A stretch of 61,117 bases of DNA from an uncultured Methanosarcinales archaeon. Its GTDB lineage: Archaea > Nanobdellota > Nanobdellia > Woesearchaeales > GW2011-AR4. The position numbers and the translations under genes were made by a program. Location: contig CAYNCK010000088.1 in assembly GCA_964396095.1 (NCBI GenBank), positions 1-61,117 of the forward strand. Direction: 5' to 3'. The notes under the pieces are model-generated. The model did no database searches, was not told the origin of the DNA, and saw only the letters and a list, made by a program, of their open reading frames with translations. Positions 3,546 to 58,711 of the stretch are shown here, piece after piece; the stretch's first letter is position 1, and each line of letters opens with the position of its first letter.

Positions 3546-3678
3546 GGGCCCGTAGTCTAGCCGTTACCACGCAAAACTTCGTTTTGCTGAGTTTGCGTGG
3601 CCGCAAATGACGTCACCCTTACAATCCTTAAAATGATTTGAAAGGTGAAGGTCACCAGTTCAAATCTGGTCGGGCCCA
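3546..3678 (+). tRNA. tRNA-Val(TAC) with two introns: D-loop intron 3566-3606 (41 nt) and canonical 37/38 intron 3624-3642 (19 nt)
   Basis: Acceptor GGGCCCG/CGGGCCC+A, anticodon stem TCACC/GGTGA with TAC, T arm ACCAG-TTCAAAT-CTGGT. Removing the two insertions at relaxed bulge-helix-bulge sites restores a cloverleaf. Confidence 0.85.
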
Positions 3679-3760
3679 TTATACATTATCCGTGCAATCG
3701 AAGATTGCACTTGTTCCCGCACTCAACTGACGGAACAGTTGAGCAGGTCGGGCCCATTAT
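3668..3760 (+). repeat. Hairpin mini-element copy 1, flanked by a 15-bp direct repeat of the tRNA-Val 3' end (3668-3682, 3746-3760)
   Basis: GGTCGGGCCCATTAT twice, 78 bp apart. Between them lie hairpins GTGCAATC-GAA-GATTGCAC (3692-3710) and CTCAACTG-ACGGAA-CAGTTGAG (3722-3743). Confidence 0.85.
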
Positions 3761-42577: not shown

Positions 42578-44269
42578 TCAAACCCCTTCAAACAGTTTCG
42601 CAACTTTTTCTTTTCCAAGCGCTAGTATAAAAGGCGCAAGCTTTGGCCCTCTTTCTTTATTTAGTAAAACTTTGTAAGCTGCCTTGAACAAATCATTTGG
42701 CTCAATTTTTAATTCATCCTTGGCAATCCTGTAAAATTCGTTGAACAAAGTTTTCTCATCCCATTTTTCTTTCCTTAATTTTTCAGCAAGCAGATGGAGC
42801 GCTTTCTTCTGATGCTGGTTCAGCTCAATATTTTCAGGAATCTTGTGCTGGAATATGAATTTATACTGCTCATCGGCAAATTCTTTGACCCATCTCTTTG
42901 CGAATGCAAGCCTTTCCCCAACATAAACAATTTCTTCTTTTACAGCGTCTTCAGCAAGCTGGCCGGTTTCCCTCAGGGAATTCATAATCAGTTTTTCATC
43001 ATCAAAAATCTGCACTAAGATTGAAGCCTGTGAAAGGCTGACCTGAGGTGGAATTCTTTTAGGGATTTTTCCGACATGGCTTAATTCATAAATTCTTCTT
43101 TGCCTTGAATTTTCTTTTTCTCCAAGGTCATCTTTTCCAAAATAAACCCTTTCAGCCTGGTCGTATCTTTCATAAAGCAAAATCAAATCATTTGTGTAAG
43201 GGTCAAAATCAATTGCGGCATTTGGCCTTGTCCTTATGAGCATGAACCTCAGCATCTTTGCAGGCGCATAATTTACAGAATCTGCAAATCCAAGCCCCTG
43301 TCCTTTGGAAGTTGACATTTTCTTGCCGCCAACATTAAAAAATTCATATCCCGGGCCTGTTTCATAGCCGTTTGAAGGATAAGGCGGTGGGTAGTCAAAA
43401 ACATCAACTGCTATTCTGCATGCTGCAGTGCGTGATCCTCCTCTTGTGAAATGGTCTTTCCCAGCTGTTTCAACTATAACGCTATTTGTCGGCCATTTTG
43501 CAGCCCATTCGACTTTCCATGGAAATTTTCCATTGCCATCATAGGGGAAAATCCATCCTTTATGGCCGCACCCTTTTGCCCATTTCACAACATCGTTTCT
43601 GCATTCAAAAAATATTTTTTCATTTTTGCCGTCCCATTCAGTCGCAAGGGTTGTGGAAATTTTTTTGCAATGCGGGCAAAGGATATTGAAAGGAAGCTTG
43701 CTTGCCGCAGCGACATCATCACCGTACAAATCCCTGTAAATTTTTTGAATTCTGTCTGCGTAATCCAATGCAATTTTTATTGTCCTGTTGAAAGAGCCTT
43801 TTTCATATTCATGGCCTGTGCTTTCAAGGTGCGCTTCAATCCCAAAATCAGGAAATAATTCCGTGCATTGCGAAAAATAATAATCCCCAAAGCTTTTGTA
43901 GCCTTTTACAGGGCTTGGAATATACCTAAAGGGAACTCCGATGTATTTTTCGTTTTCTTTTTCAGTTAATTCTTTAGAAGGCTTGTCCAATGGATCCATG
44001 TCATCGCTGCTCAGGATGAATTTTGCTTTTACTCCTTTGTCGCGAAGGGCTTTCACAATTGCATCATGTATTACCCATCCCCTGCCTGAGCCTATATGTA
44101 TTGTTCCTGAAGGGGTTTTCTCGTCCATGACAATATAGCCGTGCTTTTTGACAAGGCTTTTCAGCAGCTCATTTCCCTCAACCCTTTTGATTGCCTCATC
44201 AGCAACCTGGTCTGCCCAAAATGAATCTTCGAAACTTTTACCGATAGGGCTTTTTTTATCCATAAACAC
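42578..44269 (-). CDS. lysK: Lysyl-tRNA synthetase class I
   Basis: WAD, TPSG.IHIGS, SDDMDPL, KFPWKVEWAAKW, GKDH, KMSTSKG, RGPKLAPFI. Confidence 0.95.
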   Translation of the reverse strand: MFMDKKSPIGKSFEDSFWADQVADEAIKRVEGNELLKSLVKKHGYIVMDEKTPSGTIHIGSGRGWVIHDAIVKALRDKGVKAKFILSSDDMDPLDKPSKELTEKENEKYIGVPFRYIPSPVKGYKSFGDYYFSQCTELFPDFGIEAHLESTGHEYEKGSFNRTIKIALDYADRIQKIYRDLYGDDVAAASKLPFNILCPHCKKISTTLATEWDGKNEKIFFECRNDVVKWAKGCGHKGWIFPYDGNGKFPWKVEWAAKWPTNSVIVETAGKDHFTRGGSRTAACRIAVDVFDYPPPYPSNGYETGPGYEFFNVGGKKMSTSKGQGLGFADSVNYAPAKMLRFMLIRTRPNAAIDFDPYTNDLILLYERYDQAERVYFGKDDLGEKENSRQRRIYELSHVGKIPKRIPPQVSLSQASILVQIFDDEKLIMNSLRETGQLAEDAVKEEIVYVGERLAFAKRWVKEFADEQYKFIFQHKIPENIELNQHQKKALHLLAEKLRKEKWDEKTLFNEFYRIAKDELKIEPNDLFKAAYKVLLNKERGPKLAPFILALGKEKVAKLFEGV

Positions 44270-44314
44270 AAAAAGAGCAAAACATTATATAAAGATTGTG
44301 GAAAAGAAAAAGAA

Positions 44315-45814
44315 TTATCTCAATTCTGCTTTTGTAAACGGAAATAATATGACTTCCTTGATTGATTTTTGGTCTGTCAGAATCATTGTAAGCCTGTCAA
44401 TTCCGATTCCAAGTCCTCCTGTGGGGGGCATGCCGTATTCTAAAGCCCTTAGGAAATTTTCATCCAGCCTCAGATGCGGATTATTTTGGCCTTCTCTTCT
44501 GATTTGCTCTTCAAAAAGCTTTCTCTGTAGAATTGGATCGTTCAGTTCTGTGTAAGCATTTCCAATTTCCATTCCGGCAATGTAAGGCTCAAATCTTTCT
44601 GCGAGTCCGGGTTTTTCCCTGTGCGGCTTGCATAACGGGGTTGACTCAATTGGGTGGTCTGTGATAAATACTGGACCATCCAAATGCGGTTCGACATAAG
44701 TTCCAAATAATCCAAGAACAATTTCGCCTTTAGACATATCCCTATAATCACCAATTTTTTCTTCTGATCTGGCAGCAAGATGAGTTTTTAATTCCAGCTG
44801 GTTCATCTTCTCAACATCTGTTCCGGTATATTGTTTTACAGCATCATACATTGTTAATCTTTGCCAGGGCGTCCTCAATTCAATTTCTTTCCCTTGGTAA
44901 TTTATTTTGGTTTTTCCAGTAATAATTATGGCAATTGCGGATATCATTTCTTCTGTCAGTTCCATAACTTTATGGTAGTCGCAATTTGACATGTAAGCTT
45001 CCATCATCGTGAATTCAGGATTGTGGGTGCTGTCAATCCCTTCATTCCTGAAATTCTTGCCAATAGTATAAACTCCCTGAAATCCGCCTACAATCAGTTT
45101 TTTAAGGTAAAGTTCAGGAGAAATTGAAAGGAAATGTTCCTGGTTTAGGGAATTAACATGTGTTATAAATGGAGCCGCTGATGCACCGCCGTAAATAGGC
45201 TGAAGAGTTGGAATTTCGACTTCCATATATCCTTTGCCATCCAAAAATTTTCTCATTTGAGAAATTATTTTTGACCTTTTCATGAAAATTTCAGCAACTT
45301 CGGGGTTTGCAATCAAGTCAAGGAATCTTTGTGAATATCTTATTTCTGGATCAACTAATCCGTGGTGCTTATCGGGCAGCGGCCTTAGTGATTTTGAAAG
45401 CATCGCGAAATCGCGGACATTCATTGAAAACTCGCCTGCTCTTGTATTGAAAGTTGTTCCTTCCGCACCCATAAAATCTCCAATATCAAAAAAATCCTTA
45501 AGAAGAGAATACACATCTTCTCCTAATTGCCTTTGGTTCAAATAAAGTTGTATGGTTTGCCCCCCTTCCCGTAAATCAAGAAATGTAGTTTTTCCATGCC
45601 CCCTCCATGCAACTATCCTTCCGGCAATCTTTGCTTCCAGTCCAATTTGGCTTTTACCAATCAATTCCGGAATTCTGTCTTTAGCATCGTAAAAATGCGG
45701 ATACGGGTCTATGCCCATTCGTCTCAATTCTTCAAGTTTTCGCAGTCTTACTGGGTCAATTCCTGCGTTTGAATCCGTATTTTGCACTCTGTTCTCGAGA
45801 ACTTCGTCTGACAT
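44315..45814 (-). CDS. lysS: Lysyl-tRNA synthetase class II
   Basis: OB fold (AGRI..RGHGK..FLDL), YSQRFLDL, GGASAAPF, SPELYLK, FRNEGID.THNPEFT, GNAYTELNDP, MPPTGGLGIGIDRL. Confidence 0.96.
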   Translation of the reverse strand: MSDEVLENRVQNTDSNAGIDPVRLRKLEELRRMGIDPYPHFYDAKDRIPELIGKSQIGLEAKIAGRIVAWRGHGKTTFLDLREGGQTIQLYLNQRQLGEDVYSLLKDFFDIGDFMGAEGTTFNTRAGEFSMNVRDFAMLSKSLRPLPDKHHGLVDPEIRYSQRFLDLIANPEVAEIFMKRSKIISQMRKFLDGKGYMEVEIPTLQPIYGGASAAPFITHVNSLNQEHFLSISPELYLKKLIVGGFQGVYTIGKNFRNEGIDSTHNPEFTMMEAYMSNCDYHKVMELTEEMISAIAIIITGKTKINYQGKEIELRTPWQRLTMYDAVKQYTGTDVEKMNQLELKTHLAARSEEKIGDYRDMSKGEIVLGLFGTYVEPHLDGPVFITDHPIESTPLCKPHREKPGLAERFEPYIAGMEIGNAYTELNDPILQRKLFEEQIRREGQNNPHLRLDENFLRALEYGMPPTGGLGIGIDRLTMILTDQKSIKEVILFPFTKAELR

Positions 45815-57234: not shown

Positions 57235-58362
57235 TTATTTTTTTGTATTATGATCTAACATTTCTCTTTTTGGAAGAAGCGACATTAAGTCTCTTCTTAC
57301 ATTTCTTGCAGTGATTTCAAGGCCTGCGCCGGGTGATTGAATAATATAGGGCGCATCGGCGGAATAAGTTTCAGAAGTAATTATAATTTTGTTCATAGTT
57401 CCTCTTAGTCTGCCAAGTTCGCTGTCCGACTGCACTTCCTTCAGGCTTACCTCGATTTTTGGCTTCTGGCTTCCAATGTCTATTGAAGCAACATACCTTA
57501 ATGTTTTTCCGCTTCTTTTTGCGGAAATCATCTTATTCGCAAATAATTTGTCCAGCTGCTTTGAAGCCTGCATAAAACTTTCTGCAGTTTCATTGTTAAA
57601 ATAGTCTAGAGGTATAAAAGGATTCACAACTGCATCTTTCATGCTCACATTAAAGCCAGCAGACCTTGCAAGCACAATAAGTTTTCTTGAAACATCCAAT
57701 CCATTCAAGTCATCTCTTGGATCCGGCTCAGTATATCCCTTTTGAAGCGCTTCCTGCAAAATTTCAGAAAACATTCTCCCATTTTCCAGCTCAGAAGTTA
57801 TATACCCTAGTGTCCCTGAAAAGCAACCTTCTATGTGGCGCAGATTGTCATTTAAATCCCCCAAATCCTGCAGAAAGGGTATTGCATCAGAGCCGGCCAT
57901 TACAGAGCATCTGTAGCCATATCTTCTTGGATTTTTGGTCAGGGTTTGAAATACATCATAAGGGGAGAAAGCTATCGGATTTTTGTTTGCAGTAACTATG
58001 CCATAAGGGGTGTCGTTGATGACTTTAAGATGCAACTGCATCATAGGCTCGTTGGCAGCAGTAACATCCACAAAGACAAGCGAGCTCGCTTCTTTTTCAG
58101 TTCCGATTTTGGCAATATCAATGAGTTTTTTCGGATTTGGGTAAAGTTCTGCGCCATTATAATCTCTTACAATAAAATTATGCATTTGGCTATTTTCCAA
58201 ACCATTTGCTGAATAAACAAAGTATTGGCTGGAGGCAAGCCCGACAATTCTTGTGGGGTTTGCATGAAGCTGGGAATTCATGTCCCTCTTTTCAACAATC
58301 TGCCTAACCAGAGAACGGCCCACTTTTCCAGTTGCCCCTATTATGAATATATCCTGAATCAT
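57235..58362 (-). CDS. hom: Homoserine dehydrogenase (ThrA/MetL-type domain, stand-alone)
   Basis: IIGATGKVG, FVDVTA, VTANK, IEGCFSGTLGYI, GYTEPDPRDDLNGLDV.RKL, PGAG; start taken as ATG 58362. Confidence 0.85.
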   Translation of the reverse strand: MIQDIFIIGATGKVGRSLVRQIVEKRDMNSQLHANPTRIVGLASSQYFVYSANGLENSQMHNFIVRDYNGAELYPNPKKLIDIAKIGTEKEASSLVFVDVTAANEPMMQLHLKVINDTPYGIVTANKNPIAFSPYDVFQTLTKNPRRYGYRCSVMAGSDAIPFLQDLGDLNDNLRHIEGCFSGTLGYITSELENGRMFSEILQEALQKGYTEPDPRDDLNGLDVSRKLIVLARSAGFNVSMKDAVVNPFIPLDYFNNETAESFMQASKQLDKLFANKMISAKRSGKTLRYVASIDIGSQKPKIEVSLKEVQSDSELGRLRGTMNKIIITSETYSADAPYIIQSPGAGLEITARNVRRDLMSLLPKREMLDHNTKK

Positions 58363-58370
58363 TGAAAGTG

Positions 58371-58534
58371 AATAAAATGTGCCCAATGTGATTTCCACCA
58401 ACTGTTCCGTCATGTCGGAAATCAGAGATTTCCGAGCACCATCGAAAATGCCAAGCATTTATCGAGGGTTGAGTGCGGAAACAAGTGCAATCTACCGATT
58501 GCACGGATAAATATAATGGGCCCAACGGGATTTC
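58371..58534 (-). repeat. Hairpin mini-element copy 2 (with 55-nt nested insert), flanked by a degenerate 25-bp repeat of the tRNA-Lys 3' end
   Basis: GAAATCCCGTTGGGCCCATTATATT (58534-58510) vs GAAATCACATTGGGCACATTTTATT (58395-58371), 21/25 identical; core matches copy 1. Confidence 0.8.
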
Positions 58535-58618
58535 AACCCGCGACCCCCTGATTTCTTCATAATTAAGAGTCAGGTGCTCTAATTGCCCCAAAAAGTGTGC
58601 AGGCTGAGCTATGGGCCC
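58517..58618 (-). tRNA. tRNA-Lys(CTT) with two introns: D-loop intron 58598-58583 (16 nt) and 37/38 intron 58563-58553 (11 nt)
   Basis: GGGCCCA/TGGGCCC+A acceptor, GCTC/GAGC D stem, CCTGA-CTCTTA..A-TCAGG anticodon arm, GCGGG-TTGAAAT-CCCGT T arm; TATA ~25-30 bp upstream. Confidence 0.85.
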
Positions 58619-58711
58619 GATAATCCCTGGTTTTATAGTAATTTTATATACCTTTCTTTTTTACCGAAAGGTTTAAAGATGGATAACCAATTTTAGAAAT
58701 TTGTAATCATC

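What the first reader, a model, noticed from the sequence alone, without database searches (positions are those of the whole stretch)
58517..58618. tRNA-Lys(CUU) appears to carry a swapped elbow pair (C19-G56 instead of the near-universal G19-C56)
Seen: the T loop reads TTGAAAT rather than TTCRAAT. Splicing the D-loop intron at the bulge-helix-bulge sites (helix GCCT/GGGC, bulges GCA and AAT) gives D loop AGCCTGCTTA, with C where G19 is expected. The two changes are complementary. The degenerate 3'-end duplicate at 58395 also has G at that position, which argues against a single sequencing error. Established: G19-C56 stacks at the tRNA elbow and is contacted by RNase P, the L1 stalk and modification enzymes. 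Inference: a rare compensatory swap, found ~13 kb from two different LysRS classes.
Basis: partly seen in the sequence, partly recalled or inferred. Interest (0 to 1): 0.65.

Follow-up and report, generated by a model that had tools for sequence, protein, structure and literature searches.

The report
Archaeal lysine tRNA with flipped elbow pair
This is a real, intron-interrupted lysine tRNA gene of a tiny DPANN archaeon in which one of the most conserved contacts of all tRNAs (G19 pairing with C56 at the "elbow") is inverted to C19-G56, and the same inversion is kept in every related genome I could sample, so a supposedly universal tRNA feature has a working natural alternative in Archaea.

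Summary
The minus strand 58618-58517 encodes tRNA-Lys(CUU) with a 16-nt D-loop intron, an 11-nt anticodon-loop intron and the T loop TTGAAAT (G56).

A near-identical strain in another metagenome lacks exactly those 16 bases, and its DNA reads D loop AGCCTGCTTA (C19).

Sixteen species-level Woesearchaeales genomes were found by a pattern that did not constrain the D loop. Further loci were found through the neighbouring Pth2 gene. All carry C19 together with G56, and one gene has no intron at all.

All copies splice in silico to 75 nt, giving seven distinct sequences. All 154 stem cells pair, and five stem pairs show compensatory changes. A TATA-like box sits at a fixed distance upstream.

In a control set of 121 other tRNA-Lys genes, all have C56 and all 115 parsed D loops contain GG.

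My reading is a functional AAG decoder with an isosteric, compensated inversion of the elbow pair, fixed in a clade ancestor. It is probably near-neutral, and it probably removes the archaeal Cm56 methylation site.

The hinted link to the two LysRS classes is not supported. Relatives show only class I in the cluster. The window's class II enzyme has no homolog above 63% identity.

No RNA data exist.

The parts
58517..58618 (-). tRNA-Lys(CUU) gene: three exons and two introns. CCA is not encoded and the discriminator is A73.
   Evidence: Sequence read. Rfam tRNA match of 20 bits at the relaxed threshold. Orthologs. In-silico splicing gives 75 nt identical to the intron-free L010 gene.
58599..58618 (-). 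Exon 1 (positions 1-19, GGGCCCATAGCTCAGCCTGC). C19 lies at 58599 and G18 at 58600.
   Evidence: The junction is fixed by the X2 intron-less allele and by 13 D-intron-less orthologs.
58583..58598 (-). D-loop intron of 16 nt (ACACTTTTTGGGGCAA) at position 19/20. It has a BHB-like motif: helix GCCU/GGGC with bulges GCA and AAU.
   Evidence: Exactly these 16 bases are left out of the X2 contig. Four other intron variants (18, two of 45, and 82 nt) sit at the same site, and all end in GGGCAA. The minimum-free-energy fold does not single out the BHB.
58563..58582 (-). Exon 2 (TTAGAGCACCTGACTCTTAA): the rest of the D loop, the D stem 3' strand, the anticodon stem 5' strand and the loop with anticodon CTT.
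   Evidence: Sequence. Identical in the orthologs that share this anticodon stem.
58552..58562 (-). Anticodon-loop intron of 11 nt (TTATGAAGAAA). Read as 37/38, ATTATGAAGAA gives the same product. The bulge-helix-loop form is relaxed.
   Evidence: The fold shows UCUU paired with AAGA above the anticodon stem. The intron differs by 4 bases in the X2 strain while the exons are identical. It is absent in L007 and L010.
58517..58551 (-). Exon 3: anticodon stem 3' strand, variable loop GGGTC, T arm GCGGG-TTGAAAT-CCCGT and acceptor 3' strand. G56 lies at 58534.
   Evidence: Sequence. No variant at 58534 in X1 or in the X2 allele (0 differences across the T arm); the X4 contig was laid there with 2 unlocated differences. 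The T stem covaries among orthologs.
58642..58650 (-). TATA-like box (TATATAAAA) about 24-32 nt upstream of tRNA position +1.
   Evidence: 16 of 18 orthologous upstream regions carry TTTAAA starting at -30 to -32 (17 of 18 within -30 to -35).
58399..58516 (-). Hairpin mini-element directly behind the tRNA, with a nested insert.
   Evidence: Earlier notes e1-5114767 and e1-5114768. Raised summed contig depth over this stretch. The same element lies behind tRNA-Lys in L003, L008, L010, L014 and L017.
58378..58398 (-). Degenerate duplicate of the tRNA 3' end (GTGGAAATCACATTGGGCACA). The base equivalent to G56 is at 58395.
42578..45814 (-). Context only: class I LysRS (42578-44269) and class II LysRS (44315-45814).
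   Evidence: Pfam PF01921 and PF00152. Class I is shared by relatives at 78-83% identity. Class II has no close homolog.

Best explanation
This is a functional archaeal elongator tRNA-Lys(CUU) gene of a Woesearchaeales (DPANN) archaeon.

Proposed maturation: the primary transcript starts at or very near position +1. The splicing endonuclease removes two short introns, one at D-loop position 19/20 and one at 37/38. The CCA end is then added.

The mature 75-nt tRNA is canonical in every respect except one. The outermost tertiary pair of the elbow is inverted, so C19 in the D loop pairs with G56 in the T loop instead of G19 with C56. A Watson-Crick pair has nearly the same geometry in either orientation. 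The L-shape and the flat stacking face used by the ribosome (L1 stalk, uL5) and by RNase P are therefore kept, and the tRNA decodes AAG normally.

I infer that the inversion arose once, as a compensated double substitution in the ancestor of a clade of Woesearchaeales. Since then it has been locked in, because either single reversion would break the pair. It is most likely near-neutral.

The one predictable consequence is that this tRNA cannot carry Cm56, the 2'-O-methylcytidine that is a hallmark of archaeal tRNAs.

The sequence anatomy, the splice register, the conservation and the covariation are shown. Expression, splicing, charging and near-neutrality are inferred.
For: - Register: the X2 contig from another study lacks exactly 58583-58598 and reads ...GCTCAGCCTGC|TTAGAGC....
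- Conservation: a genome-contig scan specified only the T arm and acceptor end. It returned 16 tRNA-Lys(CUU) genes of different species plus one chance hit. All 16 have D loop AGCCTGC..TTA, although the D loop was not part of the pattern.
- Sampling independent of the tRNA sequence: loci found through the neighbouring Pth2 protein gave the same result in L142-151 and in L154-156. The L154-156 gene had escaped the DNA pattern because of a T-arm intron.
- Function: all 19 gene copies that were spliced in silico reduce to 75 nt, in 7 distinct sequences. All 154 of 154 stem cells pair, 5 pairs change on both sides, and the 19-56 pair is C-G in all 7.
- The intron-free L010 gene scores 65.7 bits on Rfam tRNA.
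- A TTTAAA box sits at a fixed -30 to -32 in 16 of 18 orthologs, and a T-run follows A73.
- AAG makes up 31% of the lysine codons in the window.
- Controls: 121 other tRNA-Lys genes all have C56, and 115 of 115 parsed D loops contain GG. The window's tRNA-Gly has GG and C56.
- Tolerance: an engineered G19C/C56G tRNA variant shows no difference in aminoacylation (PMC3602588). The elbow is recognised mainly by stacking on the pair (PMC3664808 and PMC4810234).
- Cm56 made by Trm56 is a hallmark of archaeal tRNAs (PMC7912444).
Against: - There is no RNA evidence. No RNA run holds the locus, so expression, splicing and the modification state are unverified.
I therefore cannot say whether the swap is specific to this isoacceptor or whether a second, canonical tRNA-Lys(CUU) exists.
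- No outgroup tRNA-Lys(CUU) of Woesearchaeales was recovered. The swap as 'derived in one ancestor' rests on the general rule and on the 121 controls.
- Strict invariance of both loops across lineages whose stems have changed is also what selection for a specific function would produce, so neutrality is not demonstrated.
- C56G alone abolishes cleavage by a plant protein-only RNase P (PMC5039416). Some elbow readers are therefore base-specific.
Confidence: 0.75

Rival explanations
1. The swap is an adaptive identity mark. The C19-G56 elbow would distinguish tRNA-Lys(CUU) from other tRNAs, including tRNA-Lys(UUU), for some elbow-reading partner. Possible effects are excluding it from Trm56 methylation, changing its handling by RNase P, RNase Z, the CCA enzyme or the L1 stalk so that AAG decoding is tuned, escaping a tRNA-targeting nuclease, or dedicating it to one of the two LysRS enzymes.
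For: - Both loops are strictly invariant in 7 distinct mature sequences whose anticodon and T stems have diverged.
- Some enzymes read C56 base-specifically.
- The gene lies at the end of a lysine biosynthesis and LysRS cluster.
- Earlier notes of this scan report the same swap recurring in phage and CPR tRNAs (unverified).
Against: - The LysRS version is contradicted. Relatives with the swapped tRNA have only class I LysRS in the cluster, and the window's class II enzyme is a singleton with no homolog above 63% identity.
- Neither class of LysRS is known to read the elbow (my own knowledge, not tested here).
- Invariance of unpaired loop bases is normal for any tRNA.
- No partner that changes together with the swap was identified.
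Confidence: 0.13
2. The swap is a footprint of mobile DNA rather than of tRNA function. Elements that target the 3' half of this tRNA gene would have spread a variant allele by co-conversion or by att-site replacement, or would have selected for it. The candidates are the hairpin mini-element with its att-like duplicate and free-standing LAGLIDADG homing endonucleases. G56 would have arisen at the DNA level, and C19 would have followed as compensation or been co-converted.
For: - A LAGLIDADG_3 ORF overlaps the 3' end of tRNA-Lys(CUU) on the opposite strand in three lineages (L154-156, L009 and L004).
- The mini-element sits behind the gene in six lineages.
- In five of those lineages the duplicate reads GTTCGAC+ATCCC(G/C)TTGGGCCCA. 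This looks like a canonical T loop with C at the equivalent of position 56, joined to the resident 3' end.
- Introns occur at 19/20 and 53/54, next to the two swapped bases.
- The window and the X2 strain differ by a whole intron at about 99% flank identity.
Against: - Most lineages with the swap have neither element.
- The elements still insert next to G56 alleles, so G56 gives no immunity.
- No cleavage specificity is known for the endonuclease.
- No viral contig carries this tRNA.
Confidence: 0.08
3. The feature is a pseudogene, an assembly error or a wrong splice register. In that case the gene is not used, or the mature tRNA in fact has G19.
For: - Standard finders miss the window's gene.
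- The minimum-free-energy fold of the D region does not select the BHB.
- There are no RNA data.
Against: - Independent assemblies agree.
- Intron-less alleles fix the register.
- Stem pairing is perfect, with compensatory changes.
- The promoter is conserved.
- The intron-free ortholog scores 65.7 bits.
Confidence: 0.03

Closest known systems
Canonical archaeal elongator tRNA-Lys(CUU)
   Same: - 7/4/5/5 cloverleaf and anticodon loop CUCUUAA.
- U8, A14, G15, G18, U54, U55, A57, A58 and G53-C61.
- 5-nt variable loop, discriminator A, CCA not encoded.
- D loop of the AGCCUGGUxA type and T loop of the UUCAAAU type, apart from one base in each.
   Different: Position 19 is C and position 56 is G, so the outer elbow pair is inverted. 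The Cm56 modification typical of Archaea (PMC7912444) cannot be made as such.
Engineered G19C/C56G double mutants of bacterial tRNAs
   Same: The same reciprocal exchange. The literature reports that the double mutant keeps the loop-loop interaction and aminoacylation, whereas single mutants lose activity (PMC3602588).
   Different: Those are laboratory constructs in bacterial tRNAs. This is a natural allele fixed in a clade of Archaea.
Natural C19:G56 tRNAs noted earlier in this scan (phage tRNA-Arg(UCU), phage suppressor tRNA(CUA), tRNA-Leu, tRNAs of CPR bacteria)
   Same: The same compensated inversion in otherwise canonical tRNAs. The hosts are again ultra-small symbionts or mobile genomes.
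   Different: Those are bacterial or phage tRNAs, known to me only from unverified notes. This one is archaeal, has introns, and is a chromosomal gene that is syntenic across a clade. I found no paper describing a natural cytoplasmic case. The corpus is limited to open-access papers.
Disrupted tRNA genes of DPANN and Crenarchaeota with non-canonical BHB introns (PMC5829648)
   Same: Several short introns outside position 37/38, with relaxed bulge-helix-bulge or bulge-helix-loop motifs. These imply a splicing endonuclease of broad specificity.
   Different: One orthologous gene shows four alternative intron sites (19/20, 30/31, 37/38 and 53/54) and also an intron-free allele among close relatives.
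Mitochondrial tRNAs and tRNA-Pyl with non-canonical elbows
   Same: They depart from the G18G19/T54-Psi55-C56 rule.
   Different: In those tRNAs the elbow is reduced or rebuilt, with loops shortened and contacts lost. Here every other elbow element is intact and only the orientation of one pair changes.

Membership tests
tRNA (Rfam RF00005), archaeal elongator tRNA-Lys(CUU) | Cloverleaf with 7/4/5/5 stems supported by covariation | tested here: met
   All 154 of 154 cells pair. 5 pairs change on both sides. 0 of 500 shuffles reach the covariation score.
tRNA (Rfam RF00005), archaeal elongator tRNA-Lys(CUU) | Score above the family's gathering threshold (29 bits) | tested here: met
   The window's gene with introns scores only 20 bits. 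The intron-free L010 gene, identical to the window's spliced product, scores 65.7 bits, and ARAGORN calls it Lys-ctt.
tRNA (Rfam RF00005), archaeal elongator tRNA-Lys(CUU) | Anticodon CUU in a 7-nt loop with U33 and A37 | tested here: met
   The loop is CTCTTAA in all copies.
tRNA (Rfam RF00005), archaeal elongator tRNA-Lys(CUU) | Conserved elbow: G18, G19, U54, U55, C56, R57, A58, G53-C61 | tested here: not met
   All are present except that position 19 is C and position 56 is G. The pair is kept but inverted, which is the finding itself.
tRNA (Rfam RF00005), archaeal elongator tRNA-Lys(CUU) | Own transcription signals | tested here: met
   TTTAAA box starting at -30 to -32 in 16 of 18 orthologs. 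T-rich tract directly after A73.
tRNA (Rfam RF00005), archaeal elongator tRNA-Lys(CUU) | Expressed, spliced and charged with lysine | not testable with these tools
   No RNA run holds the locus.
Archaeal bulge-helix-bulge (BHB) tRNA introns | 4-bp central helix flanked by two 3-nt bulges, with cuts after the second bulge base | tested here: met
   GCCU/GGGC with bulges GCA and AAU. The 3' part GGGCAA|UUA is conserved in five intron variants of 16-82 nt. The cut sites equal the junction seen in intron-less alleles.
Archaeal bulge-helix-bulge (BHB) tRNA introns | Flanking outer helices (strict hBHBh') | tested here: inconclusive
   The outer helices are weak or absent. The minimum-free-energy fold prefers another pairing, with z-score 0.1. 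The anticodon intron folds as a relaxed bulge-helix-loop.
Archaeal bulge-helix-bulge (BHB) tRNA introns | Cleavage by the splicing endonuclease EndA | not testable with these tools
   No RNA data were available, and the genome could not be searched for EndA.
Dedicated LysRS/tRNA-Lys pair (two synthetase classes, as in the Methanosarcina lysK/lysS case) | The unusual tRNA co-occurs with the second synthetase | tested here: not met
   Class II LysRS is absent from every related locus. LysRS-I is followed directly by another gene in L142-147. The window's class II enzyme has no homolog above 63% identity.

The most novel reading that the evidence does not exclude
The inverted elbow pair is not drift. 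It is a selected mark, specific to this isoacceptor, that keeps tRNA-Lys(CUU) out of reach of some reader of the canonical G19-C56/T-loop. On the DNA side it could be a homing endonuclease or an integrating element that recognises the invariant T-loop box. If so, the recurrent C19:G56 alleles in DPANN archaea, CPR bacteria and phages would be the visible trace of an arms race fought over the most conserved surface of tRNA.
Probability: 0.12. Interest if true: 0.8.

Novelty: new variant of a known kind. Interest (0 to 1): 0.52.

Why it matters
[quoted passage not shown] It is the platform that the ribosomal L1 stalk, uL5, RNase P and many enzymes dock on. In Archaea, C56 also carries the domain-specific Cm56 methylation.

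A natural inversion that is conserved across a clade and sits in an essential decoder shows three things.
- The orientation of this pair is not obligatory in Archaea.
- It supplies a ready-made natural substrate for asking which elbow readers are base-specific, starting with Trm56.
- It warns that tRNA finders and annotation rules built on GG and TΨC can mis-score such genes when introns are also present.

The same locus is an unusually clean natural experiment on the gain and loss of archaeal tRNA introns, with four intron sites, an intron-free allele, and presence or absence between strains.

Tried and rejected
I could not make a whole-genome tRNA census, search for tRNA-Lys(UUU), or search for Trm56, EndA or RNase P.
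- The one metagenome-contig scan used a pattern that allowed both anticodons and both states of position 56. It served only as a control set.
- Outgroup search through Pth2: a representative search, then a homolog search with a 64%-identical Pth2, then contig look-ups. In those Woesearchaeota Pth2 sits in an exosome and ribosomal-protein context with no tRNA beside it. No outgroup tRNA-Lys(CUU) was obtained.
- P0100 loci: the tRNA next to Pth2 is not Lys. My hand parse makes it tRNA-Ile(UAU), and it has a canonical elbow.
- I tried to read the T loop of a tRNA-Lys(UUU)-like Logan contig in run X3 and of a full-length 75-nt paralog in X1 by laying contigs on trimmed references. The pieces were either too short to be laid or were swamped by bacterial tRNA-Lys. 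The result is unresolved.
- RNA runs: none found.
- Viral contigs: no copy of this tRNA.
- Literature: 'C19-G56' occurs in one tmRNA paper only. C19 plus G56 plus T-loop occurs in one mitochondrial paper only. I found no description of a natural archaeal case. The corpus covers open-access papers only.
- Rejected: that the swap explains why the finders miss the gene (the introns do); that it is a sequencing error; that another splice register applies.

Full report
**1. What is in the sequence**

On the minus strand, 58618-58517 reads: GGGCCCA-TA-GCTC-AGCCTGC[ACACTTTTTGGGGCAA]TTA-GAGC-A-CCTGA-CTCTTAA[TTATGAAGAAA]-TCAGG-GGGTC-GCGGG-TTGAAAT-CCCGT-TGGGCCC-A.

- All four stems pair and the anticodon is CTT.
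- The T loop is TTGAAAT, so position 56 is G (+ strand c at 58534).
- ARAGORN and Rfam at gathering score do not report the gene. Rfam at a relaxed threshold finds a 20-bit tRNA match with large insertions.
- Cutting after the second base of each bulge removes 58583-58598 and leaves the D loop AGCCTGCTTA. C therefore stands where G19 is expected (58599).

**2. The splice register is shown by nature**

Four public metagenome runs from three studies hold this locus.

- Run X1 holds it without any difference.
- Run X2, from another study, has a 437-nt contig identical to the window over 58300-58619 except for two things. Four adjacent bases differ inside the anticodon intron, and 16 bases are missing.
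- When I laid the contig on a reference that stops inside the intron, the alignment ended at 58582 and continued with GCAGGCTGAGCTATGGGCCCG.
- The DNA of that strain therefore reads GGGCCCATAGCTCAGCCTGC|TTAGAGC. This is exactly the predicted spliced D loop. G56 is unchanged in it.

**3. The swap is conserved in a clade**

I scanned one genome per GTDB species with GGGTTGRAATCCCNNNGGGCCCA. The pattern covers only the T arm with G56 and the acceptor end, and leaves the D loop free. It gave 17 hits.

- One hit is a chance match in a Gemmatimonadales contig.
- The other 16 are tRNA-Lys(CUU) genes of Woesearchaeota and Nanoarchaeota MAGs. Five of them are titled 'Methanosarcinales'. These five share the same gene order and 68-85% Pth2 identity, so they are mislabelled.
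- All 16 have D loop AGCCTGC..TTA. Thirteen have no D-loop intron, so C19 is encoded contiguously.
- L010 has no intron at all. ARAGORN calls it tRNA-Lys(ctt), and it scores 65.7 bits on the Rfam tRNA model.

The neighbouring Pth2 gene gave a sample that does not depend on the tRNA sequence.

- Loci fetched for three Pth2 variants again carry the swapped gene. These are L142-151 and L154-156.
- L148 has an 82-nt intron at the same 19/20 site.
- L154 has a 31-nt intron at 53/54, which had hidden it from the DNA pattern.

**4. It evolves as a working tRNA**

- Removing the inferred introns from the 19 gene copies analysed gives 75 nt in every case, in seven distinct sequences. The window's product is identical to the uninterrupted L010 gene.
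- On the alignment of the seven, 154 of 154 stem cells are standard pairs. Five pairs change on both sides, three in the anticodon stem and two in the T stem. Pair 50-64 shows five pair types. No shuffle reaches the covariation score.
- The 19-56 pair is C-G in all seven.
- Upstream, 16 of 18 orthologs carry TTTAAA starting at -30 to -32. The window has TATATAAAA at -32 to -24. This places the transcription start at or next to +1.
- A T-rich tract follows A73.
- AAG makes up 31% of the lysine codons in the window's long ORFs, so the decoder is needed.

**5. Controls**

It was filled by 121 mostly bacterial tRNA-Lys genes.
- All 121 have C56, and all 115 D loops that could be parsed contain GG.
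- Together with the 16 genome hits, position 19 was unconstrained in both searches and followed position 56 without exception.
- In the window itself, tRNA-Gly(GCC) has GG and TTCGAAT.
- The intron-containing tRNA-Val (3546-3678) has TTCAAAT. Its mature D loop is unresolved.

**6. How it most likely works**

- Established knowledge: residue 56 pairs with residue 19 by Watson-Crick geometry. The distal face of that pair is a flat platform on which the L1 stalk, RNase P and (in bacteria) T-boxes stack, and which uL5 touches (PMC4810234 and PMC3664808).
- Inverting a Watson-Crick pair keeps this geometry.
- An engineered G19C/C56G variant shows no difference in aminoacylation, whereas mutations that break the pair abolish it (PMC3602588).
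- Readers that are base-specific for C56 do exist. C56G alone abolishes cleavage by a plant protein-only RNase P (PMC5039416). In Archaea, Trm56 methylates C56 (PMC7912444).

I therefore read the gene as an ordinary AAG decoder whose elbow pair was inverted by a compensated double change in a clade ancestor. Single reversions are deleterious, so it is kept. The probable side effect is that it lacks Cm56. Near-neutrality is an inference.

**7. The LysRS connection**

- The window does encode class I LysRS (42578-44269) and class II LysRS (44315-45814) 12.7 kb from the tRNA.
- In relatives that have the swapped tRNA, the lysine cluster ends in class I LysRS only. This enzyme is 78-83% identical to the window's. 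In L142-147 it is followed directly by an unrelated gene on the other strand.
- tblastn finds no class II LysRS in any related locus.
- In a database of 5.8 billion proteins, the best homolog of the window's class II enzyme is 63% identical. Pth2 has more than a hundred homologs at 79-88% identity.
- The second synthetase is therefore a recent, singular acquisition of this lineage. The tRNA swap is older and independent of it.

**8. The 3'-end duplicate and mobile DNA**

- Behind the tRNA lies a hairpin mini-element (earlier notes). It is followed at 58378-58398 by GTGGAAATCACATTGGGCACA. This differs from tRNA positions 53-73 at four places and has G at the equivalent of position 56.
- In L003, L008, L010, L014 and L017 the same element is followed by GTTCGACATCCC(G/C)TTGGGCCCA. 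The last 15 bases follow the resident T stem. The preceding seven look like a canonical T loop with C.
- The duplicate is therefore not consistent evidence for G56. It may hold an older sequence or one borne by the element.
- In L154-156, L009 and L004 a 263-aa LAGLIDADG_3 ORF overlaps the tRNA's 3' end on the other strand.
- These observations keep a DNA-level origin of the swap alive as a minor rival, but most swapped lineages have neither element.

**9. Novelty**

- Full-text searches found no description of a natural C19-G56 pair in a cytoplasmic archaeal tRNA. This is limited to the open-access corpus.
- Earlier notes of this same scan report the same inversion in phage tRNAs and in CPR bacteria. 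They are unverified, and I did not test them.
- I therefore class this as a new variant of a known kind. It is the first archaeal example I can find that is fixed across a clade, with unusually direct evidence for the mature sequence.

**10. Limits**

- There are no RNA data.
The state of tRNA-Lys(UUU), the rest of the tRNA set, and Trm56, EndA and RNase P are therefore unknown.
- No outgroup tRNA-Lys(CUU) was recovered.

Noticed in passing
window 58583-58598; L002, L008, L017, L148 (19/20); L005, L006, L007, L016 (30/31); L154:2716-2746 (53/54); L010:1420-1494 (none): One orthologous tRNA-Lys(CUU) gene carries introns at four different sites among close relatives, and one allele has none. The window and the X2 strain differ by the whole 19/20 intron while the flanks are about 99% identical, which points to very recent intron gain or loss.
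   Followed up: partly
L154:2723-3514 (-), also L155, L156, L009:133-894, L004:4036-4776: A free-standing 263-aa LAGLIDADG_3 homing-endonuclease ORF overlaps the 3' end of tRNA-Lys(CUU) on the opposite strand in three lineages. Its C-terminal residues are encoded by the complement of the tRNA's acceptor and T arm.
   Followed up: partly
window 58378-58398; L003, L008, L010, L014, L017 downstream of the tRNA: The att-like duplicates behind the mini-element read GTTCGAC+ATCCC(G/C)TTGGGCCCA in five relatives. The last 15 nt track the resident T stem. The 7 nt before them resemble a canonical T loop with C at the equivalent of position 56. The window's copy reads GTGGAAAT instead. The copy behind tRNA-Val (3743-3757) duplicates only 15 nt.
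   Followed up: partly
window 44315-45814 (-): The class II LysRS has no homolog above 63% identity in the 5.8-billion-protein collection. The neighbouring class I LysRS, Pth2 and the M29 peptidase have many homologs at 78-90% identity. This looks like a recent, singular acquisition, and among the top hits are Patescibacteria proteins at about 50% identity.
   Followed up: partly
window 58642-58650 (-) and the upstream regions of L001-L017 and L148: The TTTAAA/TATA box lies at a fixed -30 to -32 from tRNA position +1 in 16 of 18 orthologs, preceded by a conserved AGTTACC-like stretch. The pre-tRNA would be leaderless or nearly so, as described for Nanoarchaeum equitans. Outgroup Woesearchaeota nevertheless encode an RNase P protein (Rpp14 in L159-L163).
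   Followed up: no
L138:1780-1927 (+): Next to Pth2 in a close relative lies a 148-nt tRNA with a canonical elbow (GG, TTCAAAT). My hand parse makes it tRNA-Ile(UAU) with introns at 29/30 and 37/38. Rfam scores it at 41.8 bits.
   Followed up: partly
L001, L006, L007, L009, L012 (record titles): Five MAGs titled 'uncultured Methanosarcinales archaeon' (four 'binchicken' isolates and one SRP178908_co1_9), and also L009, titled only 'uncultured archaeon', share the gene order, 68-85% Pth2 identity and the swapped tRNA with the Woesearchaeota MAGs. The 'Methanosarcinales' titles appear to be taxonomically mislabelled.
   Followed up: partly
window 3546-3678 (+): tRNA-Val(TAC) has a long D-region intron and an anticodon intron, and ARAGORN and Rfam miss it. 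Its T loop is canonical (TTCAAAT), but I could not fix the mature D loop.
   Followed up: no
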